Assembly: GCA_016177155.1 (NCBI GenBank)
Contig: JACOVU010000029.1
Span: forward strand, 1 to 35,407
Origin: Candidatus Omnitrophota bacterium
GTDB taxonomy: Bacteria > Omnitrophota > Omnitrophia > Omnitrophales > Danuiimicrobiaceae
Length of the DNA: 35,407 bases
Direction: 5' to 3'
Numbering within the stretch: position 1 is the first letter of the stretch; the number at the start of each line of letters is the position of its first letter. A program made the translations under genes and the position numbers. The notes below the pieces were generated by a model. The model was given only the letters and a program-made list of their open reading frames with translations, had not been told where the DNA came from and did no database searches. Positions 1 through 35,003 of the stretch are shown in pieces.

Positions 1-1603
1 CTTCCATGGTTCCAATCCGGTGGCCTGCCACATTGAGCACGTCATCCAATCGGCCTAAAAGCCAAAAATAACCTTCCGGGTCTAACTTTGCCCCATCACC
101 AGGAAAATAGATGTTCGGCCACTTGGACCAATATTGCTTCTCGTAGCGGTCAGAATCTCCATAAATACCGCGGAGCATCGCAGGCCAAGGCTTTGTAATC
201 GCCAGGTAACCGCCTCCTACTTCAACTCGCTCGCCTTGCTCATTTAAGATACAAGCTTCGATGCCTGGAAAAGGTTTGGTCGCAGAACCCGGTTTTAAGG
301 TCGTCACGCCGGGAAGTGGTGTAATGAGAATCATGCCGGTTTCGGTTTGCCACCAAGTGTCCACGACAGGACATCTGCCGCGACCAATGTGCTCGTGATA
401 CCACATCCAAGCTTCTGGATTAATCGGTTCGCCTACAGAACCCAAAAGCCTGAGACTTGAAAGGTCGCGCTTCGCGGGCCACTCCGTTCCCCATTTCATA
501 AAGGCGCGAATTGCAGTCGGGGCCGTATAAAAAATAGTAATCCCATACTTTTCAATGAGCTGCCAAAAACGGTCCTTGTCAGGCCAATCGGGTGCGCCTT
601 CATACATAAAAACGGTCGCGCCATTCGCAAGCGGGCCATACACGACATAACTGTGCCCGGTGACCCAACCGATATCGGCTGTGCACCAGTAGACGTCGCT
701 TGGCTTGAGATCAAATACCCACTTCGTCGTCGCGTAAACACCTGTGAGGTAGCCCCCTGTGGTATGGACAATTCCTTTAGGTTTTCCCGTTGTGCCTGAG
801 GTATGCAAAATATAAAGAAGATCTTCCGAATCCATGGGTTCTGGCTCACAATAGGAATCTGCTTCTTGCATAAGCCTGTGCCACCAGTGATCACGGCCTT
901 CTTTCACGCGAAGCGGAAAATCACCACGTTTGACGATCACCACATGCTCAACGGTGGGTGTGTCTTTGAGGGCGTAATCGGCATCATGTTTTAAGGGGAG
1001 AAGTCCGCCGCGACGGTAACCGCCGTCCGCCGTGATCAACACTTTCGCCTGCGCGTCATTAATACGGTCTACGAGTGCCTCTGCGCTGAATCCTCCGAAC
1101 ACCACACTGTGAACCGCTCCAATCCTCGCGCACGCAAGCATGGAGATCGCAATCTCGGGAATCATGGGAAGGTAAATCGCAACACGGTCGCCTTTTTTCA
1201 CGCCCAATTTTTTGAGCGCGTTGGCAAATTTATTCACCTCGCGGTAAAGATCCCAATACGTAAGCGTCCTCTGGTCTCCTGGTTCTCCTTCCCAAATGAT
1301 AGCAGCTCGATTTCGAAACTCAGATTTTGCCCATCGGTCGACGCAACTGGTAGTAACATTCAGTTTCCCACCAACAAACCATTTTGCATCAGGGGGATTC
1401 CATTCGAGGATTTTGTCCCACTTTTTCGTCCAGACCAATTCTTCAGCAAACCGAGCCCAAAAAAGCTCGGGGTTGCGTTTTGCTTCTTCATAAATTTTTT
1501 CATCCCGAACCCAGGCCGTTTTTCGAAATGATTCTGGAGGCGTGAATTGTCTTGTTTCACTGAGCAAAACATCGATCGCTTCGGTCTTTGTTTCGGCTTT
1601 CAT
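1..1603 (-). CDS. acs: Acetyl-CoA synthetase (acetate--CoA ligase), 3' end beyond the window
   Basis: Absent from the ORF track because it runs off the edge. Read by hand from ATG at 1603: [23 protein letters not shown]...; motifs [38 protein letters not shown] and YFPGDGA. Confidence 0.95.
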
Positions 1604-10977: not shown

Positions 10978-12265
10978 CCTGTGCCGAAGATTCCTTCTCT
11001 TTCGTCTGAGAGGGTTTTCGTTCCTCCAAACGAAAGAGTGAATGAAGGGTTTCTAAATAACGTTCCATACCGCCAACTTTTGCAGATTCTTTCAATTTCT
11101 CGACGGGCGTATGGAGGAGACTCGCTTTAATTTTTTGAACCAAGCTCTTCAGCTCTTTTTCCCTACCTTTGAATTTAGGGGCTACTTTGGTTACCTCGGT
11201 TTCAACAATTTCATCAAAGTAAGCCGTTAATCTTTGAATCACTGGCCCAGCCTCCAAAAATTCATACCATTGGTCGAAGGATTCAAGCTCTCTTTCAATC
11301 ATGACCTCGCATTTGGAGATTTCTTTCTTCCTGAGCCTCAAGTTGGATTCGGAAACCGTTTTCAGATCGTCGATATCGTAAAGGTAAACGTCGTCGATCT
11401 CACCCACGCGGGATTCAACATCTCTCGGAACAGCAATATCAATAAAGAAAAGTGGCTTGTGGCGGCGTTCATTCATGACTGCTTTCACATCTTCATACTT
11501 GACAATCGCGTGAGGTGCGGCTGTTGAGGAAATCACGATATCGCTCGTCCGAATGGCTCTCAGCCAAGCATCAAATCCAATCGGTTTTGCCCCGTACCTC
11601 TGAGAAAGTTCGAGGGCGCGTTCATAAGTGCGGCTTGCCACCGTAATCTCGCCCGCGCCTGCTTTCACCAAATGTTTCATGGTCAGCTCGCTCATCTTTC
11701 CTGTTCCAAGAATCAAGACGCGTTCGCCTGTCAATTTTCCAAAAATTTTTTCAGCTAGTTCGACCGCGATGGAAGAAACGCTCACCGCCCCCTTACTAAT
11801 CTTCGTTTCCGTGCGAACTTTTTTACCGACGCGGAGTGCTCGTTCCACCAACTGGTATAGAATGGAATCGAGTGACTTCAGTTCATTGGCCATTTTGAAT
11901 GCATTGCGCACTTGCCCATAAATTTCATTTTCACCCACCACCAGTGAATCAAGCCCGCTCGCCACACGGAATAAGTGTCGCGCCGCCTCCCGTCCATGCA
12001 ATTGATAAAGATACTGACGGTAGGTACAACCCTCCAAACCATGGAAATCACTTAGGAAATGAATGAGGCTTTCCTCTACGCCCGAAAAACCCCGCCCATA
12101 AAGTTCAACCCGGTTGCAAGTAGACAAAACAAACCACTCGCGAAGACCTTCGAGGTCGCCCATCTTGACCAAGGCATCCGACAGTGCAGATTCCGAAAAG
12201 GCAATTTTCTCACGTATCTCTACAGGACAACTTTTGTGATTAAGACCCACACACACTAAATCCAT
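10961..12265 (-). CDS. hemA: Glutamyl-tRNA reductase
   Basis: GLNHK, LSTCNRVE, VASGLDSLVVGENEIYGQ, DIAVPRD. Confidence 0.97.
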   Translation of the reverse strand: MDLVCVGLNHKSCPVEIREKIAFSESALSDALVKMGDLEGLREWFVLSTCNRVELYGRGFSGVEESLIHFLSDFHGLEGCTYRQYLYQLHGREAARHLFRVASGLDSLVVGENEIYGQVRNAFKMANELKSLDSILYQLVERALRVGKKVRTETKISKGAVSVSSIAVELAEKIFGKLTGERVLILGTGKMSELTMKHLVKAGAGEITVASRTYERALELSQRYGAKPIGFDAWLRAIRTSDIVISSTAAPHAIVKYEDVKAVMNERRHKPLFFIDIAVPRDVESRVGEIDDVYLYDIDDLKTVSESNLRLRKKEISKCEVMIERELESFDQWYEFLEAGPVIQRLTAYFDEIVETEVTKVAPKFKGREKELKSLVQKIKASLLHTPVEKLKESAKVGGMERYLETLHSLFRLEERKPSQTKEKESSAQDALPH

Positions 12266-12268
12266 AAA

Positions 12269-13114
12269 TCAGCGCACTCCCGCATGAAGACCCGTATGAA
12301 ATAAACTCGTACCCAAAAAGGTAAAAAGGACCAAAACAAAAGCACCCAGGGACATCAACACAATACGTTTTCCTTTGATTTGAAGAACCTCGTGCAAATA
12401 AATGATGACAAGATAAACTGCCCAGGTCAAGAAACTTGCAAAAGACTTGGGCTCTTTTAAGATAAAACTTCCGAAAGCCGTTTTAGCCCAAAGTGCTCCG
12501 CTCAAGATGGCAAATCCCAATAAAATGACACCCCATTGAATGGTTCGGAACGCAAGCCGCTCCAAATCTTCGAGTGGGGGAAGTCGATGATAAAAGGTGC
12601 TCGAAGTTTTCTCTTTCAACGCTCGATTCAACACCAAATAAAAGAGAGCGGCAATAAAGGAAAGCGCAAAACTTGCATATCCAAAAAAGGCGGAAAGAAT
12701 GTGGATCAAGAAATAGCCGTCGTGGAAATGCTTAAAAAGCTCTTCATTGGGATGAAAAGGAAAAAAGACGGGGATTAAAAACAGAATCAGGACAGGCGTT
12801 AAAATCACGCCGAAGGTTTCCGTGCGCATTTGCCTGAGAAGAATCAGATAAACGAACGCAAGCGACCAAGCAAAAAACCCGGACGCCTCTCCCAGGGTGG
12901 TGACGGGCAGGTGAAATTCATTTGTCACGGACCGCGAGACTGAGAACGTCTCAGCGAAAATCAGAAGCGTATGAATCAAAAATCCAAGCTCGACAAAGCG
13001 CGCTGCCCAAATCACTCGCTTCTCGATAACGTTCAAAAACTCACTGGCAAAAAGAATAAACGCAATCGCATACGCACCGATCGCAAACAAGAGTAACCAA
13101 TAAACAAGATTCAT
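12269..13114 (-). CDS. ccsA: Cytochrome c assembly family membrane protein (CcsA/HemX-like)
   Basis: Multiple hydrophobic segments, conserved His (LIHIL), SGALWA...EPK motif; directly upstream of hemA. Confidence 0.8.
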   Translation of the reverse strand: MNLVYWLLLFAIGAYAIAFILFASEFLNVIEKRVIWAARFVELGFLIHTLLIFAETFSVSRSVTNEFHLPVTTLGEASGFFAWSLAFVYLILLRQMRTETFGVILTPVLILFLIPVFFPFHPNEELFKHFHDGYFLIHILSAFFGYASFALSFIAALFYLVLNRALKEKTSSTFYHRLPPLEDLERLAFRTIQWGVILLGFAILSGALWAKTAFGSFILKEPKSFASFLTWAVYLVIIYLHEVLQIKGKRIVLMSLGAFVLVLFTFLGTSLFHTGLHAGVR

Positions 13115-13116
13115 TT

Positions 13117-13698
13117 CTATTTCCCCGTTTCAAGCAATTTAAATTCTGATGCCACTACTTTTTTAAAATGATTGCGGCGCGCCTCGGGAGCGTTTAAGGA
13201 TTGTTTGGTCTTCATGCGATCCTTGGACAATTTTTGTACCAAAGCAGAATATTTTGAACCAAATTCCTTTTCTAGTTTTTTCCGAAGCGTCTTGGCCAAA
13301 AGAGGACTTGCCCCTCCTGTTGAAATCGCGATTTGAAGTTTCCCGCGCTGAATGATCGACGGCACAATAAAAGTCGAATGCGTTGGATCATCTACCACAT
13401 TCACAAAAATCCCTTTTTTCTCGCACCATTCAAAAATAGTTCGGTTGAGCGCCTCATCTGAAGTTGCTGCCACCACAAGCTCAGGATTTTCTCCTTGCGG
13501 GATCTGAGATCCAAACCGAATATCGATTTTATTCGCCCGAGCAAACCGCTTAAAAGCCTTTGAACAATCATGGCTGATCACCAAAAGTTTTGCCCCTGCT
13601 TTGATCAGCGTCCGCGCCTTCCGAAGAGCCACGCCACCTCCTCCGAAAAGGAGCACTTTCTTTCCCTGAAGTTTAAGAAAAGCAGGATAGTATTTCAT
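13117..13698 (-). CDS. Precorrin-2 dehydrogenase / sirohydrochlorin ferrochelatase (SirC/Met8/CysG N-terminal family)
   Basis: MKYYPAFL, GGGGVALRK, VNVVDDP...FIVPS, AISTGGASP. True start is ATG 13698; the ORF extension to 13755 is repeat sequence. Confidence 0.93.
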   Translation of the reverse strand: MKYYPAFLKLQGKKVLLFGGGGVALRKARTLIKAGAKLLVISHDCSKAFKRFARANKIDIRFGSQIPQGENPELVVAATSDEALNRTIFEWCEKKGIFVNVVDDPTHSTFIVPSIIQRGKLQIAISTGGASPLLAKTLRKKLEKEFGSKYSALVQKLSKDRMKTKQSLNAPEARRNHFKKVVASEFKLLETGK

Positions 13699-13808
13699 CC
13701 CCCACCACTTTCCAAAAATAAATCTGACAGCAATGCCGTCGTTATTGATGGACAATAAACATTATATTCGTAGTTCAATGCGTAGTATAAAAAGTGGTGG
13801 GGGATCAT
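13695..13808 (-). repeat. CCACCAC-family stop-to-start inverted-repeat element, copy 1
   Basis: Minus strand: ATGA TCCCCCACCACTTT - 79 nt - AAAGTGGTGGGGG ATGA. Confidence 0.92.
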
Positions 13809-15226
13809 ATAAATTTAAGACGGTTCCTCTCTAAGAATTCCTCAAACTCATTTTCCAACGTGAACTTTGGAATCACCCGCAACCCGCTCAACTCTTCCGC
13901 CGCTTCGATCGTTTCCTGATCCACAGGATCAACCATGGCAAGCTCCAGTGCATCATCTTTGATCGTGATCGGAACAACCCGATGATCGCGCACAAACTCC
14001 TCAGTTAAAATGCGGGCGAGGTCTTCGGTTAAAATATGGTTCTTAAGGCTCACATAACCCACTGAGAATTTCGACTCAAGCAGCTTCCCGACTTCACTGC
14101 TCGAAACCGCATTCATCCGAATCAGAACTTGACCGATTCTCTCCCCGGTTTCGACATGACGTTTGACTGCTTGATTGAGTTCTATTTCCGTAATGAGCCC
14201 TGCATCAAGCAACAACTGCCCAAGCGGTTTTGAGGTATCGCGCTTCTCATCGCTGGGTGAAAGCACTTCCAGGGACTCTTGAAGCGAGCTCAAGGGCATT
14301 TCTCGTCGATCGCGAAGATAATGACTTCCAGGTTGCGTCTTAAGATAAGCTTTCACTTCTGCGGCGTCACGAGCAACCTCCGCCATGCTGCGGTACGGCC
14401 GGTACAGATTCGTTACCGCTGCGATCGAAAGACTCATCAAAGGAAAAGAAACAGGAACACCGCTCCTGTTTTTCACGAGGACGGATTTACGTTTTCGGTC
14501 TGCATCCTCATAATGCGTCGGAATAATTCGGTCAAACTCTTGAAGGCAAAGTTGGGCAAAACGAGTTTCGTGATCCGTATCCGTCACCACTACAAAATCA
14601 TCACCTCCAATGTGGCCGAAAAAACTATTCCGATCCGCTTCGCTCAATTCAAGACATCTTGCAATCAATTGAGCCGTATGCCGAATCACTTGATCTCCCC
14701 GTTCAAATCCATATCGATCATTAAAAGATTTAAAGTGGTTGATATCCATATAACAAACCGAGAAAAGTTCACTTCGATCAATGCGTTTTCGAATGTTTTC
14801 TTCAATCGCAATACTACCGGGCAGGTTGGTAAGCGGATTCGCCTGAAGCCGTTCGCGGGCGCGGGTGAGATTGAGTTCAATCCGGAGTTGGAGCGAAAAG
14901 GCATCAAAGGGTTTAATCAAAAAATCGTCAAACCCGCGGTCGCGGCTCAAAACGAGCTCTCTGACTTCATTCTCCTCGGCCAACAACATAATCGGAACGC
15001 CCAGGCCGGTAATGCTCTGCTTCATTTTTTTGGCGAGGTTCACCCCATCCACCTCTTCCATCGTCGTACCCATTAAGACGAGATCGAAGCGAACCTTTTG
15101 AACCAAGCGAATCGCCTCATCGCTATGGGTGGCAATAAATACATCATAATTTCGAGCCAGAAGTCTCGCCTCTAGAAGAGCGAGCGTATCTGAATCTTTC
15201 TCTGCAATTAAAATTTTGTAACTCAT
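13805..15226 (-). CDS. Atypical REC - GGDEF - MshEN/T2SSE_N fusion (putative diguanylate cyclase)
   Basis: REC-like N-terminus; NPLTNLPG, DINHFKSFNDRYG, GHIGGDDF; C-terminal PLGQLLLDAGLIT...ERIGQVLI and LAMVDP. Confidence 0.88.
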   Translation of the reverse strand: MSYKILIAEKDSDTLALLEARLLARNYDVFIATHSDEAIRLVQKVRFDLVLMGTTMEEVDGVNLAKKMKQSITGLGVPIMLLAEENEVRELVLSRDRGFDDFLIKPFDAFSLQLRIELNLTRARERLQANPLTNLPGSIAIEENIRKRIDRSELFSVCYMDINHFKSFNDRYGFERGDQVIRHTAQLIARCLELSEADRNSFFGHIGGDDFVVVTDTDHETRFAQLCLQEFDRIIPTHYEDADRKRKSVLVKNRSGVPVSFPLMSLSIAAVTNLYRPYRSMAEVARDAAEVKAYLKTQPGSHYLRDRREMPLSSLQESLEVLSPSDEKRDTSKPLGQLLLDAGLITEIELNQAVKRHVETGERIGQVLIRMNAVSSSEVGKLLESKFSVGYVSLKNHILTEDLARILTEEFVRDHRVVPITIKDDALELAMVDPVDQETIEAAEELSGLRVIPKFTLENEFEEFLERNRLKFI

Positions 15227-15307
15227 CCCCCACCACTTTTCCTGATTAACTTTTCCAATCTAATCTTAGATCCGCTCACCAAATTGCAAAAAGTGGTGGG
15301 GGATCAT
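15223..15307 (-). repeat. CCACCAC-family stop-to-start inverted-repeat element, copy 2
   Basis: Minus strand: ATGA TCCCCCACCACTTT - 50 nt - AAAGTGGTGGGGG ATGA. Confidence 0.92.
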
Positions 15308-16101
15308 CCCTTAAAACTCTCCTTCGATGAAGGAAAATGCTTTGAAAGTACATCTTTGCGATACTCGAGGACAGCTTTCCGAACAGCTTCACTCAAGTAA
15401 GCATATTGCCTGACAAACCGCGGTTTCACTTGAGATTCAAAACCAAGCATGTCATGAAGAACCAGGACTTGACCGTCTGTACTTGGCCCAGCTCCAATCC
15501 CGATCGTTGGAATCCTGAGTCCTTTCGTAATCCGCTTCGCCAGTGAATTTGGAACACATTCTAAGACAATCGAAAAAACACCCGCTCGCTCAAGCATCTT
15601 TGCGTCTTCGAAAATCCGCTCTGCTTCTTCTTCGGTCTTTCCCTGCACTTTATAGCCGCCGAGTTCGCGGACCGACTGTGGAAGCATGCCTAAATGCCCC
15701 ATCACGGGGACTCCAGCGCGAAGAATCGCCTGTACTTGCTTTAAAACTTTCTTGCCGCCTTCTAATTTCACTGCCTGAGCGCCCGCTTTTTTAAATTGCT
15801 TGGCGTTTGCCACTGCTACTTTCACATTGGAATAAGACCGGTACGGCATATCAACGACCAGAAAAGAACGGTGAACCGCACGGCGTGCTGCCTTCAAATG
15901 ATGGAGCATCTCTTCCATCGTAACGGGAAGTGTAGTCTCATAACCTAAAACTACCATCCCGAGCGAATCCCCAACGAGAACAATATCCACTCCCGCTTCG
16001 TCAACAATCTTGGCAAAGGGAAAATCATAGGCAGTTAAAACTGTGATTTTCCGCCGCTTTCTTTTCAAACCTATGATATTCCGAACGGTCATCCGATCCA
16101 T
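15304..16101 (-). CDS. panB: 3-methyl-2-oxobutanoate hydroxymethyltransferase
   Basis: LTAYD, LVGDSLGMV, AVKLEGG, MGHLG, TIGIGAG...DGQVLVLHDMLG. Confidence 0.97.
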   Translation of the reverse strand: MDRMTVRNIIGLKRKRRKITVLTAYDFPFAKIVDEAGVDIVLVGDSLGMVVLGYETTLPVTMEEMLHHLKAARRAVHRSFLVVDMPYRSYSNVKVAVANAKQFKKAGAQAVKLEGGKKVLKQVQAILRAGVPVMGHLGMLPQSVRELGGYKVQGKTEEEAERIFEDAKMLERAGVFSIVLECVPNSLAKRITKGLRIPTIGIGAGPSTDGQVLVLHDMLGFESQVKPRFVRQYAYLSEAVRKAVLEYRKDVLSKHFPSSKESFKG

Positions 16102-16136
16102 GACAGATTTCTGAAGAAACGCTTGAGGTCTCGATC

Positions 16137-17000
16137 CTACTTCTTGAGCTGGAGCGAAATGGCTTGAGCCAAATTTTCCATTAGGGTCATCGTTGTAAGC
16201 GGCCCAACGCCGCCGGGAACAGGGGTAATAAAAGCAGCCCGTTTTTTCGCCGTTTCAAAATCCACATCGCCCACCGTTTTTCCGCTCACCCGGTTAATGC
16301 CTACATCAATCACAATCGCCCCTTCTTTAATCCACGCTCCCGGAATCAGGGCAGGCTTCCCCGCCGATACCACAAGTACATCGGCGCGGCGCACATGGGA
16401 TTCGAGCATTCCTGATTTAAATGTTCCCGTGTGGCAAATGGTGCTCGTAATTTTCTTTCCGATCATGAGCAGGAATGCGGGAAGTCCCACAATTTTACTT
16501 GAACCGATGACAACCCCTTCTTTTCCAAAGAGATCAATTCCCGTTTCCTCAATAAGCCGAATGCACGAGCGAGCCGTGCACGGAGCGAGCCCTTCTTTGT
16601 GAATCACTAATTTCCCGAGGTTGCTCGTAGTCATCGCTTCCACATCTTTATCGGGATGAATCGCATCCAGCACTCGATCCACTTGAAAGGTCTTGGGAAG
16701 AGGCATTTGAACGATAATTCCATGAACTTTCGGATCGCGATTGGCGCGCTCAATTTCCCCAATGAGATCCGCCTCGCTTGCGGTCGAATCCAAGGTGGTG
16801 GTCTCGTGTTTAATCCCGACGGATTCTGCCGCGCGCCTTTGAGATTTTAAATAAAGTTCTGAGGCAGGATCTTCGCCTAACTCGATGGCGCGTAAGGTGG
16901 GCGGCATCATGAGTTGCTTTGCGTACTCCTTGATCTCACGCTCAACTTGAGTTCTGAGCTTTTCAGCGACTTTTTTACCTTCCAGGAGTTGTGCTTCCAT
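16137..17000 (-). CDS. folD: Bifunctional methylenetetrahydrofolate dehydrogenase/cyclohydrolase
   Basis: GIIVQMPLP, PDKDVE, PCT, VIDVGINR, ITPVPGGVGPLT. Start is ATG 17000 (after GGAG) or ATG 17012. Confidence 0.95.
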   Translation of the reverse strand: MEAQLLEGKKVAEKLRTQVEREIKEYAKQLMMPPTLRAIELGEDPASELYLKSQRRAAESVGIKHETTTLDSTASEADLIGEIERANRDPKVHGIIVQMPLPKTFQVDRVLDAIHPDKDVEAMTTSNLGKLVIHKEGLAPCTARSCIRLIEETGIDLFGKEGVVIGSSKIVGLPAFLLMIGKKITSTICHTGTFKSGMLESHVRRADVLVVSAGKPALIPGAWIKEGAIVIDVGINRVSGKTVGDVDFETAKKRAAFITPVPGGVGPLTTMTLMENLAQAISLQLKK

Positions 17001-32010: not shown

Positions 32011-32727
32011 TCACATTCTCAAGATGTTCCTCGCGTTCCCGCTGAAAACAGGCTCGCGCTTGGAGGATGGAAGTAAATATTCAAACTTTTTGATCTCGAG
32101 CCCCAAGTGGGAATAGGGAATGTCAGAAGCAAATACCACTTTATGCGCTCCCACTTCCCGAAGGATTTGCCCGGTTCGGTAGTAAGAAAGTGTAGAGGTA
32201 TCTAAATAAACGTTTTTAAGCTCTTTCGCGATCTCGATCGCCTCTCGAAATAAATCTTTCCCCGAATGAGCCAGTACAAAAAAAGTCCTGGGATAAGCTT
32301 TAAAAATATGATGCCACTCGCTTGGGTGGCAATTGGGTTCGTGGCCCGTATGGAGTACTACCGCTAATCGCTTTTGGTCAATCGCTTCAAAAAGAGGTTT
32401 CGCTAGGTGGGCATTGAACCGATCCGAACGCGGATGAAGTTTGACCGCCCGAAAGCCTAAGCGGACGGCGTGGTCAATCTCTTCAAAAGAAGCTTTCTTC
32501 TCATTGGGATTAAGTCTGGCGCACCCGATCAAACTCCGCTCGCGTTCAATCACTCGGGCAATCTTCCGGTTCATCCGAGCATAAGCAGGACCGGGACTTG
32601 CTTCATCAATCGGAAATATAACGCTCTTTGCAACCCCAAAACGCCTCATCACGTTCAGCATATCAGAAAGCGTTTGGCGTGCGCCATCGCGTGAATGGCC
32701 CAAGTGGGTGTGGAAATCGATGATCAT
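32011..32727 (-). CDS. Metal-dependent amidohydrolase (Amidohydro_2-like TIM barrel)
   Basis: IDFHTH, AVKLHP, VLHTG, LAHSG, YLDTS, VFASDIPY, GNARNIL. Confidence 0.9.
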   Translation of the reverse strand: MIIDFHTHLGHSRDGARQTLSDMLNVMRRFGVAKSVIFPIDEASPGPAYARMNRKIARVIERERSLIGCARLNPNEKKASFEEIDHAVRLGFRAVKLHPRSDRFNAHLAKPLFEAIDQKRLAVVLHTGHEPNCHPSEWHHIFKAYPRTFFVLAHSGKDLFREAIEIAKELKNVYLDTSTLSYYRTGQILREVGAHKVVFASDIPYSHLGLEIKKFEYLLPSSKREPVFSGNARNILRM

Positions 32728-32777
32728 CCCCCACCACTTTTCAGGTTGATAGATTCAAGAAAGTGGTGGGGGATCAT
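32724..32777 (-). repeat. CCACCAC-family stop-to-start inverted-repeat element, copy 3
   Basis: Minus strand: ATGA TCCCCCACCACTTT - 19 nt - AAAGTGGTGGGGG ATGA. Confidence 0.92.
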
Positions 32778-34150
32778 CGATTGATTTCAGACTCGCAGGC
32801 AACAGTCGGCACGAGGCCGCCGCCGCGGGAAACATTCACCACAGTTTCATCACTTAAACGGGAAAGGCTCCCCGCGTAAGCTCCATTGAATACAAAACAG
32901 CCCGTATTTACCTTCTTAGCTACGAATTCGATTTTATGGTTCACAATGGTAGGAACAGTCATCACCGGGGGGCTCACAAATTCCTGAACGACCCAATTGG
33001 ATTTAATCGCTTTATCGATCGTGTGATTCCATTCATCATCCCGCGTCTCAGGACCGATCGTTACTTCTTTGCCGCCGTATCCTTCGGCCGGTTTGAGCAC
33101 GAGGGATTCTTTTTCATCTTTGAGAAAATCAACAAAATAAATCTTTTTGCCGCCATAAAAACGGTCGGCGTCAATCATCCGTCTTGTCCAAAGAACGTGT
33201 TGTTGTTTCGTTTCATTTTCCTTTGCCGAAAATAGGTGGTCATAACCAGGATTTGTGAGAATGGAAAGAATCGCTTTGGAAGCCGCCAGGCGCGAACGCA
33301 AGGGATTCACCACACAAACCGCACGATCTTTGTATGCACGAACCAAATCGTTCACCTCACGAAGCTTCTCCAAAAGCTCATTGAAAATCACCCGCCGATA
33401 AAGAAGGTCGATCCTGAAATTGCCGTGATAAAGCTTACCCGATTTATAACGAAGCTCGCGGGGATCTGCAATGGTGGTTTTGTATCCTTTGCTTTCAAAA
33501 AAGGATTTTAAAATATCAAATTCAGGTCTCGTGCGGACAGTTTTCCAATCCACAATGGCAATTTGAGGCGTTTCGACACCCCCAAAATCCTCATAAATAC
33601 TCAGAAGAGCGTCCAAAAGCTTTTGACTTCTCATCTCTCGCTGAACATGAATTTCATCAAAAAAATCGGTGAGTTCCTTCGACTCAAAAAAGAGTTGTTC
33701 CAGCGTATCCGTATATCCCATCCCCGCGGGGGAATCGCAATTGAGCTCCATAAATTTGAGCGTTTCGCCCTCAAGCGTACAATCAAACCGGGCGAGTACC
33801 ACAACACGGGCATAACCAGGATCGATTCGAACGAGTTCCTCGGCTTCTTGTGACAGCGAAAAACAATCTTTCAAAATGGGATCGTTGTGGAGATAAAGAT
33901 CAGCGAGACGATCGACCATACGGGCCAAATGATCTGAGGCAGCATGAATCAAACGCGTTTGCTTGGCCGTGATGAAATGAGGTTTGAAAAAAGTGGGAAT
34001 CGTAAAACGTCCAAACTTGACAAGACTATGGTGGAGCTGATCCTCAAAACGACGGATTGCTTCCGCCAGTACTTTTTCATTCGAAAGCACATACTGTTCG
34101 AACGCATGATCAGTATTTCGCGTATAATCAATGGATGTGCGCTGAACCAT
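32774..34150 (-). CDS. Circularly permuted ATP-grasp protein (glutathionylspermidine synthase-like fold)
   Basis: ARFD...[48 protein letters not shown]. Start is ATG 34150 (after GAGG) or TTG 34165. Confidence 0.82.
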
Positions 34151-35003
34151 ATACCGCCTCGCCAATCTCTGCTGGACTTTCTACCACGGTAACCCCCGCT
34201 GCTCTAAGTGCTTTCATTTTTTCTGGTGCTCGCCCCATGCCTCCCGAAATAATTGCACCCGCATGACCCATTCGTTTTCCCTTCGGAGCGGTCCGGCCTG
34301 CTATAAATGCAATCACCGGTTTTTTCATCTTTTTTTTAACAAATTCGGCCGCTTTCTCTTCAGCATTACCACCAATTTCACCAATGAGAACTACCGCTTC
34401 GGTTGCGGGATCTTCTTCAAAAAGCTCAAAACAATCTATGAAATTAGTTCCTAGGATCGGATCGCCGCCGATCCCAATCACCGTAGACTGCCCAATTCCG
34501 CGGGCCGTCATCTGCCAAACTGCCTCATACGTCAACGTTCCGCTTCTGGAAACCACACCGACCACGCCAGGCTTATGAATGTAACCTGGCATAATGCCGA
34601 CTTTCGCAGCTTCTGGTGTGATTATACCTGGGCAATTTGGACCGATCAAGCGAGCCCCTTTATTTTTGAGGTATTTTTTCACGCGTACCATATCCAAAAT
34701 GGGGATTCCCTCCGTAATGCAAACAATAATCCGAATTCCGCTGTCCGCAGCTTCCACCACTGCATCCTTAGCAAATTGAGCAGGGACATAGATGACGCTC
34801 GCGTTTGCGCCCGTAGCCTGAACGGCTTCGCGCATCGTATTAAAGACAGGAACTCCTTCGCACGTTTGCCCGCCCTTTCCAGGCGTTACACCCCCCACAA
34901 TCTTTGTGCCATACGCGAGCATCTGCTTGGCGTGAAACGAACCGTGCGAGCCCGTAATTCCCTGCACAATTACTTTCGTATTTCGATCTACTAATATCGC
35001 CAT
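34128..35003 (-). CDS. sucD: Succinyl-CoA synthetase alpha subunit
   Basis: [46 protein letters not shown]. Start at ATG 35003. Confidence 0.97.

What the first reader, a model, noticed from the sequence alone, without database searches (positions are those of the whole stretch)
13695..13808. Stop-to-start hairpin cassettes: ATGA-TCCCCCACCACTTT...AAAGTGGTGGGGG-ATGA joining adjacent genes (copy 1 of 3)
Seen: three intergenic spacers (13699-13804, 15227-15303, 32728-32773) consist entirely of identical inverted arms around unrelated interiors of 79, 50 and 19 nt. Each time the upstream TGA stop abuts the left arm, the downstream ATG abuts the right arm, and both flanks read ATGA. Deleting the element and one repeat restores an ATGA stop/start overlap like the five plain ones in this window (4650, 5864, 6298, 8493, 25958). 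An equivalent parse is a TCCCCC...GGGGGA element with a duplicated TGA, whose last A rebuilds the start codon. Inference A: a non-autonomous mobile element that targets ATRA and inserts harmlessly by regenerating the stop, the start and a G-rich (GGTG) ribosome-binding site. Inference B: the stem hides the downstream RBS until a ribosome terminating at the TGA melts the left arm, making a portable translational-coupling device. Precise excision from DNA or RNA is a third possibility. I do not recognise this as a described element but could not search.
Basis: partly seen in the sequence, partly recalled or inferred. Interest (0 to 1): 0.92.

Follow-up and report, generated by a model that had tools for sequence, protein, structure and literature searches.

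The report
Start-codon-inserting palindromic mini mobile elements
The three hairpin spacers are copies of a tiny mobile DNA family that lands exactly on gene start codons and rebuilds the stop codon, ribosome-binding site and start codon, and longer relatives of it carry a small nuclease gene.

Summary
The window (an Omnitrophota groundwater MAG) holds three elements: 13698-13804, 15226-15303 and 32727-32773, genes on the minus strand. Each is TCCCCCACCACTTT...AAAGTGGTGGGGGA between two TGA copies.

The genome has 19 complete copies of this family. A pattern scan finds 46 such elements, counting a sister family whose right arm is a perfect Shine-Dalgarno sequence (GGAGGTGGTGGGA|TG).

Evidence for mobility:
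- Orthologous junctions in congeners are empty, as plain ATGA, TGATG or TAATG.
- Interiors fall into multi-copy families found in both orientations.
- Distribution among relatives is patchy.

The target is the start codon, NTG+A. The base before the left TGA is A 39, G 5, T 2, C 0.

In 26 of 46 elements (two of the three here), a mini-ORF starts at the old start codon, reads through the element, and stops at the TGA overlapping the rebuilt ATG. This is a translational relay like that described for mycobacterial MIRUs.

Two 320/329-nt sister elements encode a GIY-YIG nuclease from arm to arm. The finder's exact arms flank GIY-YIG genes in other Omnitrophota and in Patescibacteria.

Not shown: that the nuclease moves the elements, or any translational effect. 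I found no description in print.

The parts
13698..13804 (-). Element 1 (107 nt): 14-nt terminal inverted repeats TCCCCCACCACTTT / AAAGTGGTGGGGGA around a 79-nt interior of 'family 1', which here lies in reverse orientation relative to three other copies
   Evidence: predicted RNA hairpin -42.4 kcal/mol, z -6.5
13805..13807 (-). Left TGA copy of element 1. It is the stop codon of the response-regulator/GGDEF gene (13805-15226). With base 13808 it forms the old start codon ATG.
13695..13697 (-). Right TGA copy of element 1. Its T and G, together with the element's last base (13698), form the rebuilt ATG (13696-13698) of the sirohaem-synthase-like gene (13117-13698).
13695..13808 (-). Relay mini-ORF of element 1: 37 codons (MIPHHF...ESGGG), running from the old ATG through the whole element to the TGA that overlaps the new ATG (-4 overlap)
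15226..15303 (-). Element 2 (78 nt, 50-nt interior; sister copy on G000:C124). TGA copies lie at 15304-15306 (panB stop) and 15223-15225. The rebuilt ATG at 15224-15226 starts the response-regulator gene. The mini-ORF from the old ATG (15305-15307) stops after 13 codons, 39 nt before the new ATG, so there is no full relay here.
   Evidence: fold -37.8 kcal/mol, z -5.5
32727..32773 (-). Element 3 (47 nt, 19-nt interior). TGA copies lie at 32774-32776 (stop of the ATP-grasp gene 32774-34165) and 32724-32726. The rebuilt ATG at 32725-32727 starts the amidohydrolase gene (32011-32727).
   Evidence: fold -33.1 kcal/mol, z -7.2
32724..32777 (-). Relay mini-ORF of element 3: 17 codons ([17 protein letters not shown]) ending at the TGA that overlaps the new ATG

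Best explanation
The three cassettes are non-autonomous copies of a family of very small palindromic mobile elements.

SHOWN
- Each element is T-CCCCCACCACTTT...AAAGTGGTGGGGG-A between two copies of TGA.
- It sits exactly on a start codon NTG+A.
- The left TGA keeps the upstream stop, or the tail of the old start codon.
- The element's last A plus the right TG rebuild an ATG.
- The right arm supplies a GGTG-type Shine-Dalgarno 4 nt before that ATG.
- A sister family in the same genome has arms that are a perfect SD and its complement (GGAGGTGGTGGGA / TCCCACCACCTCC).
- Its 320- and 329-nt members encode a ~110-aa GIY-YIG nuclease. That reading frame begins at the host gene's old start codon, runs through both arms, and stops at the TGA overlapping the rebuilt ATG.
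- 113-nt members are in-frame deletion derivatives of these long forms.

INFERRED
(i) Ribosomes that terminate the upstream gene, or initiate at the old start codon with its intact native SD, translate into the element and open the stem that buries the new SD and AUG. In the 26 of 46 full-relay copies they terminate at ATGA and re-initiate on the host gene. The insertion is therefore nearly silent.
(ii) Start codons are hit because a native RBS followed by NTGA resembles the element's own right end.
(iii) The GIY-YIG protein is the enzyme that moves the long forms and, in trans, the ORF-less ones. The CCCCCACCACTTT family has no cognate nuclease in this 86%-complete assembly. The same arms flank GIY-YIG genes in other Omnitrophota and in Patescibacteria.
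For: ANATOMY
- 19 of 19 complete copies in the genome read TGA-T-arm...arm-A-TGA. This was not imposed by the search.
- Base before the left TGA: A 14, G 3, T 2 in these 19. It is A 39, G 5, T 2, C 0 in the 46 elements of the pattern scan. The genome background before TGA is T 37%, A 26%, C 19%, G 18%.
- The right ATG opens >=100 codons in 39 of 46, against 17.3% of all NTGA sites.
- The left TGA closes an ORF of >=70 codons in 14 of 19.

MOBILITY
- Sites 1 and 2 are empty in all four congeners that hold the locus: ATGA, TGATG, TAATG, TAA-ATG, a 5-nt spacer, or a 17-nt overlap.
- Site 3 is empty in G002. In G005 it is filled by a different element (TIR TCCCGTTAGAACTC) with the same ATGA...TGA flanks.
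- The left end of the arm family occurs in only 3 of 41 relatives.
- Interiors form 25 clusters, 10 of them multi-copy, some in both orientations.
- 4 of 46 elements sit directly behind an older right-arm-like end.
- The nrdR start codon is empty in G002, G004 and G005, holds a 113-nt element in G003, and holds the 320-nt GIY-YIG element in G000.

RELAY
- 27 of 46 element lengths are 2 mod 3 (binomial p 3.6e-4).
- 26 of these 27 are open. Shuffled interiors give a mean of 4.3 and a maximum of 10 in 2000 shuffles.
- For the finder's family alone, 10 of 10 are open (shuffle mean 1.6, maximum 6 of 5000), but the length bias is not significant there (10 of 21, p 0.12).
- Window ORFs are confirmed.

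STEMS AND ARMS
- Folds of -33 to -42 kcal/mol; 0 of 200 shuffles fold as well.
- The 16S 3' end in the same family is GGATCACCTCCTTT.
- Left flanks keep native AGGTGGT-type SDs.
- In the 5-member interior family, arms are 280 of 280 identical while interiors are 477 of 790.

NUCLEASE
- Pfam GIY-YIG E 8.5e-15 and 3.1e-14. The closest solved relative is UPF0213 BH0048, E 4e-10.
- In an alignment of 30 homologues, the arm-coded M1, P3, V106 and G108 are each >=90% conserved.
- The exact finder arms flank GIY-YIG ORFs in G119 and G161 (Omnitrophota) and in three Patescibacteria records. One of the three is frameshifted. The proteins are 52-57% identical while the arms are 13 of 13.
- No DDE_Tnp_1, rve or DDE_3 was found in the genome.
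Against: - No experiment, and no read-level polymorphism. Only assembled contigs of four runs from one study were available, and none joins across an element.
- A TIR plus a short target duplication is the hallmark of DDE transposons. No GIY-YIG enzyme is known to me (recalled) to act as a prokaryotic transposase.
- The assembly is 86% complete and repeats often fail to assemble, so a classical transposase could be missing.
- The window's own family has no cognate nuclease in this genome.
- 20 of 46 elements lack the full relay, among them element 2 of the window.
- In the related genome G011 the same arms carry other flanks (CTAG, TTAG, CTAA, TCA). They abut stop codons (9 of 17 examined) rather than starts, and often have decayed arms. 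Target choice is therefore not uniform.
- The 46-element set was found with a pattern that demands TGA on both sides and TCCC/GGGA ends. For the sister family the duplication is imposed, not observed.
- Copies are related by descent, so the shuffle statistics overstate independence.
Confidence: 0.68

Rival explanations
1. These are ordinary MITEs moved by a DDE-type transposase that is unassembled or encoded elsewhere. The GIY-YIG gene is a passenger, or a separate selfish gene that settled in the loop.
For: - Perfect TIRs and 3-4-bp target duplications are classical DDE features.
- The genome is 86% complete and contigs break at repeats.
- In G119 and G161 the GIY-YIG ORF has its own ATG inside the loop rather than reading through the arms.
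Against: - No DDE_Tnp_1, rve or DDE_3 hit in the genome.
- No long copy among about 60 elements of G011; the 'solo' arms pair with decayed arms.
- In the sister family the nuclease ORF is coded from arm to arm. This is conserved in an alignment of 30 homologues, where the arm-coded M1, P3, V106 and G108 are each >=90% conserved.
- The short forms are in-frame deletion derivatives of the nuclease-coding form.
Confidence: 0.2
2. The elements spread by homing rather than transposition. The GIY-YIG nuclease cuts empty SD+NTGA sites, and repair copies an element in from another locus or another cell. The 'TGA duplication' is then part of the copied unit or a product of micro-homology.
For: - GIY-YIG enzymes are known homing endonucleases (recalled); there is a weak NCBIfam hit to group I intron endonuclease.
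- Empty, short-filled and long-filled states occur at one site within a genus, as in a homing cycle.
- The G004 empty site GGAGGTGGCGGGATGA matches 15 of 16 bases of the right arm plus TGA.
- There are tandem insertions behind right-arm-like ends.
Against: - Spread to dozens of unrelated start codons has no long flanking homology to guide repair.
- Classical free-standing homing genes have no inverted arms.
- No cleavage data.
Confidence: 0.25
3. These are REP/REPIN- or IS200/IS605-like hairpin elements moved by a Y1 HUH transposase (RAYT/TnpA).
For: - Y1_Tnp genes occur in 30 of 41 relatives, including this genome.
- A conserved stem with a variable loop is what a hairpin-recognising enzyme would preserve.
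Against: - The Y1_Tnp loci of G000 and G011 have no arms nearby.
- G005 has elements but no Y1_Tnp hit.
- Single arms are not themselves palindromic.
- These families leave no target duplication (recalled), yet 19 of 19 copies have one.
Confidence: 0.04
4. These are host-evolved intercistronic regulatory hairpins (translational coupling or RNA-processing sites) that arose in place and are not mobile.
For: - Arms are 280 of 280 identical while interiors are 60% identical.
- Stable predicted RNA stems cover the SD and AUG.
Against: - Empty orthologous sites.
- Repeated interiors at unrelated loci and in both orientations.
- TGA repeats 19 of 19.
- Present in 3 of 41 relatives, yet also in other phyla and inside 23S rRNA genes.
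Confidence: 0.03

Closest known systems
MIRUs (mycobacterial interspersed repetitive units; Supply et al. 1997). I saw them only through section 9 of the review PMC3184786 and a passage of PMC12548453.
   Same: Both are small (40-100 bp) multi-copy units inside operons, with empty and filled sites and short direct repeats. The review says MIRUs insert at start codons so that an ORF within the unit is coupled to the host gene with -4 spacing. This is the arrangement seen in 26 of 46 elements here.
   Different: The host phylum differs. The elements here have perfect 14-17-nt inverted arms that are an SD and its complement, a constant TGA duplication, and long forms that encode a GIY-YIG nuclease. 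I saw no enzyme named for MIRUs in what I read. No sequence comparison with MIRUs was made.
Bacterial MITEs such as Correia/NEMIS, ERIC and Chunjie (review PMC3184786, passages)
   Same: Terminal inverted repeats, a target duplication, sizes under 350 nt, co-transcription with neighbouring genes, and stable RNA hairpins.
   Different: Known MITEs derive from IS elements with DDE transposases and land in intergenic DNA. These land on the start codon itself and rebuild the stop, RBS and start. The only long forms found encode a GIY-YIG protein.
Free-standing GIY-YIG homing endonuclease genes and the small UPF0213/YhbQ-type GIY-YIG proteins (PDB 1zg2, 1ywl; SLX1)
   Same: The long elements encode a single ~85-110-aa GIY-YIG domain. 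The best solved match is UPF0213 BH0048 (E 4e-10). Such genes are multi-copy and patchy: 169 of 201 Omnitrophota genomes have hits, with up to 10 per genome.
   Different: Classical homing genes lack inverted arms and target duplications and home to one cognate site (recalled). Here the ORF is bounded and partly coded by the arms, borrows the host start codon, and has ORF-less derivatives at many loci.
Neisseria REP2 and Borrelia IR repeats (review PMC3184786, passages)
   Same: [quoted passage not shown]
   Different: According to the review, REP2 has no terminal inverted repeats, carries its own promoter, and is not reported with target duplications or a relay ORF.
Translational coupling by RNA unfolding or termination-reinitiation, e.g. 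phage f1 genes VII/IX and ATGA overlaps (PMC12548453 passages; PMC6728339 seen in the search listing only)
   Same: A downstream RBS closed by a hairpin and opened by ribosomes translating upstream, and -4 ATGA overlaps.
   Different: In those cases it is a fixed feature of one operon. Here it is packaged in a portable element.

Membership tests
MITE (non-autonomous inverted-repeat element) | Terminal inverted repeats | tested here: met
   14-nt perfect arms in all three window copies. 37 of 38 arms of the 19 genome copies are exact.
MITE (non-autonomous inverted-repeat element) | Short direct duplication of the target | tested here: met
   TGA on both sides in 19 of 19, not imposed by the search. 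In G011 the repeats are 4-bp (CTAG, TTAG, GTAG, CTAA, CCAG) or 3-bp (TCA), with several mismatched pairs.
MITE (non-autonomous inverted-repeat element) | Empty sites in relatives and multiple copies | tested here: met
   empty sites; copies.
MITE (non-autonomous inverted-repeat element) | Autonomous partner with the same ends that encodes a transposase | tested here: inconclusive
   Partners with the same ends encode a GIY-YIG nuclease, not a known transposase. No DDE_Tnp_1, rve or DDE_3 in the 86%-complete genome.
MIRU-like start-codon insert | Inserted at start codons of genes within operons | tested here: met
   The right ATG opens >=100 codons in 39 of 46. All three window starts agree with orthologue N-termini.
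MIRU-like start-codon insert | ORF through the unit, coupled to the host gene by a -4 overlap | tested here: met
   26 of 46 in the genome and 2 of 3 in the window. Element 2 fails this test.
MIRU-like start-codon insert | Sequence relatedness to mycobacterial MIRUs | not tested
Free-standing GIY-YIG homing endonuclease gene | Encodes a GIY-YIG catalytic domain | tested here: not met
   The three window elements have no such ORF (mini-ORFs of 37, 13 and 17 codons). The feature is met only by the long sister elements G000:C78 and C70 and by exact-arm elements in other genomes.
Free-standing GIY-YIG homing endonuclease gene | Cleaves a long cognate site lacking the gene and is copied in by repair | not testable with these tools
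   Needs enzyme assays or crosses.
REP/REPIN with RAYT, or IS200/IS605-derived hairpin elements | Y1 HUH transposase gene flanked by the repeats; no target duplication | tested here: not met
   The Y1_Tnp loci L186-L188 have no arms nearby. The TGA duplication is present.
Any curated RNA family (Rfam 15) | Match at gathering score | tested here: not met
   No hit on the elements in the window, L075 or L112. Only rRNA and tRNA hits appeared elsewhere.

The most novel reading that the evidence does not exclude
The 320-330-bp arm-to-arm GIY-YIG units are a previously unrecognised class of autonomous mobile element, possibly the smallest known.
- They have no promoter, RBS or start codon of their own.
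- They insert at a host start codon and borrow its SD and NTG to express a GIY-YIG nuclease that acts as their transposase or homing enzyme.
- They pay the host back with a built-in SD, a rebuilt ATG and a -4 relay.
- They spawn ORF-less hairpin derivatives such as the three in this window.
- They cross phylum borders between Omnitrophota and Patescibacteria. There the same stem also lets them sit harmlessly at the tip of a 23S rRNA helix.
Probability: 0.4. Interest if true: 0.95.

Novelty: new variant of a known kind. Interest (0 to 1): 0.85.

Why it matters
The finding shows a way for selfish DNA to colonise a gene-dense, streamlined genome almost without cost. The element lands on the one place where it can rebuild everything it breaks, and it uses the host's own translation signals.

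About 59 left ends (22 + 37) in 1.38 Mb suggest that a few percent of this organism's genes are translated through such an insert. That matters for gene calling, for start-site annotation in uncultured phyla, and for operon expression.

If the GIY-YIG protein proves to be the mobilising enzyme, three things follow:
- It adds a new enzyme class to prokaryotic transposition.
- It gives a function to a large set of small GIY-YIG proteins (UPF0213-like) annotated only as 'GIY-YIG nuclease family protein'.
- The arms could serve as a compact portable translational-coupling part.

Tried and rejected
- Text search for the arm sequences in papers found only two unrelated primer hits.
- Searches on MITE + Shine-Dalgarno/start codon, GIY-YIG + TIR/MITE/homing, GIY-YIG + Omnitrophota, GIY-YIG + UPF0213/YhbQ/COG2827 and GIY-YIG + mobile element/inverted repeats gave no description of such an element. 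Subscription journals and supplements were not seen.
- Rfam at gathering score: nothing on the elements.
- Promoter-like and terminator-like sites in 13000-16200 are not above shuffles (4 vs 3.4; 5 vs 4.0). I therefore dropped the idea that the interior carries a promoter.
- Inversion-switch idea: interiors occur in both orientations, but the 19-26-nt interiors are too short, and no strand-changing joints were reported in the contigs. Not pursued.
- I considered the arms as two halves of a palindromic homing site. Arms with interiors of 24 nt or less were found only 3 times in all held DNA, and the empty orthologous sites lack the arms altogether.
- Long autonomous copy in G011: the candidate 3.9-kb pair on C80 dissolved into a 187-nt element plus an unrelated solo arm.
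- Y1_Tnp link rejected.
- Sequencing runs: 4 DNA contig sets from one groundwater study, two of them possibly the source. No RNA holder was listed. No joint removes a whole element. The 'skips' between the arms are other family members mapping by their arms.
- An anti-SD-like reading of the finder's own left arm is weak. It shares only parts with the 16S 3' end. The strong match is in the sister family.
Full report
**What is there**

The window is contig C115 of a 1.38-Mb, 147-contig, 46% G+C assembly, 86% complete. Named relatives show it belongs to Omnitrophota: G011, in the same family, is identical in contig lengths and element positions to the public 'Omnitrophica bacterium' MAG found. 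Runs that hold the DNA are groundwater metagenomes.

At the three reported places the sequence is as described. The 13-mer occurs six times, all exact, as three inverted pairs. Chance gives 0.63, and 0 of 100 shuffles reach six.

All neighbouring genes are on the minus strand and are ordinary chromosomal genes:
- panB
- a receiver-GGDEF-MshEN protein
- a sirohaem-synthase-like protein upstream of a cytochrome c assembly gene and hemA
- a circularly permuted ATP-grasp protein
- an amidohydrolase

In gene sense each site reads NNA-TGA-T-CCCCCACCACTTT-[interior]-AAAGTGGTGGGGG-A-TGA. The first TGA is the upstream stop. The A-TG is the downstream start.

**Genome-wide picture**

The genome holds 19 complete pairs plus four single arms at or near contig ends.
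- All 19 show TGA on both sides, although the search did not ask for it.
- The base before the left TGA is A 14, G 3, T 2.
- The right-hand ATG opens 78 or more codons in 18 of 19.
- The left TGA closes an ORF of 70 or more codons in 14 of 19. In the other five the upstream gene ends directly before the left TGA up to 131 nt before the arm.

The constant feature is therefore the start codon, not the stop/start overlap. The best parse is a 14-nt inverted repeat T...A with a TGA direct repeat. The element's last A converts ATG, GTG or TTG starts into ATG.

A generic scan for TGA[TCCC...GGGA]TGA with at least 9 nt of terminal inverted repeat gave 46 elements. Twenty-one belong to the finder's family. 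Twenty-five belong to a sister family with arms TCCCACCACCTCC, TCCCACCACCTGC, TCCCATCACCTCC or TCCCACTACCTCC. That pattern imposes the TGA flanks and the TCCC/GGGA ends.

The sister right arm, GGAGGTGGTGGGA or GGAGGTGATGGGA followed by TG, is a perfect Shine-Dalgarno 7 nt before the ATG. The 16S rRNA of two genomes of the same family ends in GGATCACCTCCTTT. The finder's right arm has GGTG 4 nt before the ATG.

Left ends counted by pattern are 22 for the finder's family and 37 for the sister family in this genome.

**Evidence that they move**

Orthologous junctions in the five congeners (about 70-75% nucleotide identity) are as follows.
- Site 1 is empty in all four congeners that hold it: ACATGATT in G004, TTTGATGG in G005, and 17-nt overlaps in G001 and G002.
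- Site 2 is empty in all four: TAATG, TGATG, TAA-ATG, and TAA + 5 nt + ATG.
- Site 3 is empty in G002.
- Site 3 in G003 carries an unrelated palindromic spacer.
- Site 3 in G005 carries a different element (arms TCCCGTTAGAACTC) at the same start codon, with ATGA on the left and TGA on the right, although the upstream gene ends 14 nt earlier.

The finder's left end is found in 3 of 41 relatives: G000 with 22, G005 with 3 and G011 with 10. The sister family is found in 11 of 41, including all five congeners.

Interiors fall into 25 clusters, 10 with more than one member, and some occur in both orientations.
- The window's 79-nt interior is one of five related copies, two of them inverted relative to the flanking genes.
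- Within this family the arms are 280 of 280 identical in pairwise comparison, while the interiors are 477 of 790.
- This means either selection on the arms in place or descent from several diverged but arm-competent lineages.

Four of 46 elements lie directly behind an older, decayed right-arm-like end (sequences).

Compared with a rough count of 4,851 TGA/TCA sites outside long ORFs, and with 17.3% of all NTGA sites opening 100 or more codons, 39 of 46 insertions at real gene starts is far from random.

**The relay ORF**

The old start codon and its native SD stay intact at the left flank. AGGTGGT-type motifs are seen 7-9 nt upstream in several copies. A reading frame therefore starts there and enters the element (MIPHHF... 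or MIPPPP...).

In 26 of 46 elements it runs through the whole element and ends at the right TGA, overlapping the rebuilt ATG by 4 nt.
- Lengths are 2 mod 3 in 27 of 46 (p 3.6e-4).
- Twenty-six of those 27 are open. Shuffled interiors give a mean of 4.3 and never more than 10 in 2000 trials.
- For the finder's family alone, 10 of 21 have the right length (p 0.12, not significant), but all 10 are open (shuffle mean 1.6, maximum 6 of 5000). For the sister family, 17 of 25 have the right length and 16 are open.
- Copies share ancestry, so these figures overstate independence. Even so, both orientations of one interior family are open.

In the window, element 1 has a 37-codon relay and element 3 a 17-codon relay. 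Element 2's frame stops after 13 codons, 39 nt before the ATG.

The transcripts are predicted to fold into stems of -42.4, -37.8 and -33.1 kcal/mol (z -6.5, -5.5, -7.2). These stems pair the SD and the A and U of the AUG.

My reading is inferred, not tested. Translation entering from the upstream gene or from the old start codon opens the stem. In the relay copies it then hands the ribosome to the host gene by termination-reinitiation.

**The nuclease link**

Two sister-family elements are long: G000:C78 9935-10254 (320 nt) and C70 13907-14235 (329 nt). Their relay ORFs, of 108 and 111 codons, are GIY-YIG catalytic domains (Pfam E 8.5e-15 and 3.1e-14). The closest solved relative is the UPF0213 protein BH0048, with weak SLX1 matches.

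The 113-nt elements cluster with them and keep the N- and C-terminal coding parts, so they are in-frame deletion derivatives.

In an alignment of 30 metagenome homologues, the arm-coded ends (MIPPP......QVVG) are conserved; M1, P3, V106 and G108 are each at least 90% conserved. Sources name these proteins only 'GIY-YIG nuclease family protein' or 'putative endonuclease'.

The nrdR start codon shows all states within one genus:
- empty with a glyA/nrdR ATGA overlap in G002, G004 and G005;
- a 113-nt element in G003;
- the 320-nt nuclease element in G000.

The G004 empty site, GGAGGTGGCGGGATGA, matches the right arm plus TGA at 15 of 16 bases. This fits the idea that native RBS+NTGA sequences are hit because they look like an element end. 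It could also be a footprint.

Small GIY-YIG genes are found in 169 of 201 Omnitrophota genomes sampled, with up to 10 per genome.

For the finder's own arms, this assembly has no cognate nuclease. Its third GIY-YIG gene, on C138, has other flanks. Elsewhere, however, the exact 13-nt arms enclose an 83-86-aa GIY-YIG ORF:
- in Omnitrophota G119 and G161;
- in Patescibacteria UBA6201 and H51-bin042_1;
- in frameshifted form in Patescibacteria UBA918.

These proteins are only 52-57% identical across the two phyla, while the arms are unchanged. One paper reports gene exchange between Omnitrophota and Patescibacteria in groundwater and lists GIY-YIG proteins among transferred genes (PMC12455944, passages only).

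No DDE_Tnp_1, rve or DDE_3 gene was found in the genome. Y1 HUH transposases are common in the order (30 of 41 genomes) but show no link to the arms.

**What does not fit neatly**

In G011 the same arms occur about 60 times (118 arms with at most one mismatch). Most are 52- or 68-nt units. Many arms are decayed. The flanks differ: CTAG, TTAG, GTAG, CTAA or CCAG as 4-bp direct repeats, TCA in others, and several mismatched pairs. Nine of 17 examined abut a real stop codon with a 1-nt spacer, while a start codon follows only some. Target choice and duplication length thus vary between lineages.

In other Omnitrophota the stem is the centre of a roughly 200-nt multi-hairpin repeat. It lies in spacers of ribosomal-protein operons.

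In Patescibacteria the stem replaces the tip of a 23S rRNA helix. It lies between the conserved GGAACTCGGCAAA and AAAAACACAG stretches. An Omnitrophota 23S of the same family as the window has an ordinary helix there.

**Comparison with what is known**

The closest described thing is the mycobacterial MIRU. [quoted passage not shown] A 2011 review notes empty and filled sites, tetranucleotide direct repeats and imperfect inverted repeats (PMC3184786, section 9). I did not see the original paper (Supply 1997).

The present elements work like MIRUs but differ in four ways:
- perfect SD/anti-SD-like arms;
- a constant TGA duplication;
- occurrence in both orientations with both frames open;
- long forms that encode a nuclease.

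They share ends and duplications with MITEs, but no transposase partner is known. They share the enzyme family with free-standing homing endonuclease genes, but not the anatomy. My searches of the held library found no description of such an element. Subscription journals and supplements were not covered.

**Verdict**

The mobile-element reading is well supported. The relay/coupling mechanism has strong sequence statistics but no functional test. The role of the GIY-YIG nuclease rests on association.

I rate the finding a new variant of a known kind (start-codon-inserting relay repeats), with a substantial chance that the long forms are a new class of autonomous element.

Noticed in passing
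G000:C46 6740-6790 (contig end), C91 1-45, C79 1-25, C98 ~11340-11375: A perfect palindrome, GGGGACAGATTATAATCTGTCCCC with AAAAT/ATTTT flanks, is nested inside several elements. It sits where contigs break, so it looks like another multi-copy repeat.
   Followed up: no
L024 (G005:C43) about 1375-1500, minus strand: A sister element with arms TCCCGTTAGAACTC / GAGTTCTAACGGGA and ATGA...TGA flanks lies at the orthologue of window site 3, although the upstream gene ends 14 nt earlier.
   Followed up: partly
L023 (G003:C118) 1975-2072: The orthologue of site 3 carries a 98-nt spacer built of GCGGAATG / CATTCCGAATTCCG-type inverted short repeats. This is a different palindromic insert.
   Followed up: no
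L069 2467-2534, L071 780-829, L065 7906-7967, L070 7034-7102 and 7345-7627, L159 81-500: In Patescibacteria the same 13-bp stem forms the tip of a 23S rRNA helix. In UBA918 and UBA6201 a second copy about 110-240 nt away carries a GIY-YIG ORF in its loop. Only L069 and L071 were confirmed as rRNA by Rfam.
   Followed up: partly
L075 3950-4110 and 5040-5215; L112 5475-5745 and 7005-7205: In other Omnitrophota the stem is the centre of a ~200-nt multi-hairpin repeat. It lies in spacers truA|rplM, rpsI|argC, rplV|rpsS and rplB|rplW. There is no Rfam match.
   Followed up: partly
L217, L225, L212, L214, L222, L227: Other small GIY-YIG ORFs in the phylum end inside, or are flanked by duplicated pieces of, tRNA genes. 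For example, the ORF's last codons plus its TAG are the first bases of a tRNA. This suggests a different insertion habit within the same protein family.
   Followed up: no
L235 (G004:C81), just upstream of nrdR: The empty glyA/nrdR junction reads GGAGGTGGCGGGATGA, which matches 15 of 16 bases of the sister-family right arm plus TGA. glyA ends ...EVAG like the element ORF (...EVVG). This is either target mimicry or a deletion footprint.
   Followed up: no
L216 (G191:C4), upstream of nrdR: In a distant family of the phylum, a GIY-YIG ORF also ends in a GTGA overlap with the nrdR start. The same gene start is occupied independently, or has been for a long time.
   Followed up: no
41 relatives: Y1_Tnp (HUH tyrosine transposase/RAYT-like) genes are present in 30 of 41 genomes of the order, often in several copies.
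   Followed up: partly
window 12001-13000: AT skew jumps to +0.31 over the cytochrome c assembly gene, against values within about +/-0.1 elsewhere in the window.
   Followed up: no
window 13726-13740, minus strand: A small terminator-like hairpin with a T-rich tail lies inside element 1. Such sites are not more frequent than in shuffles (5 vs 4.0).
   Followed up: no
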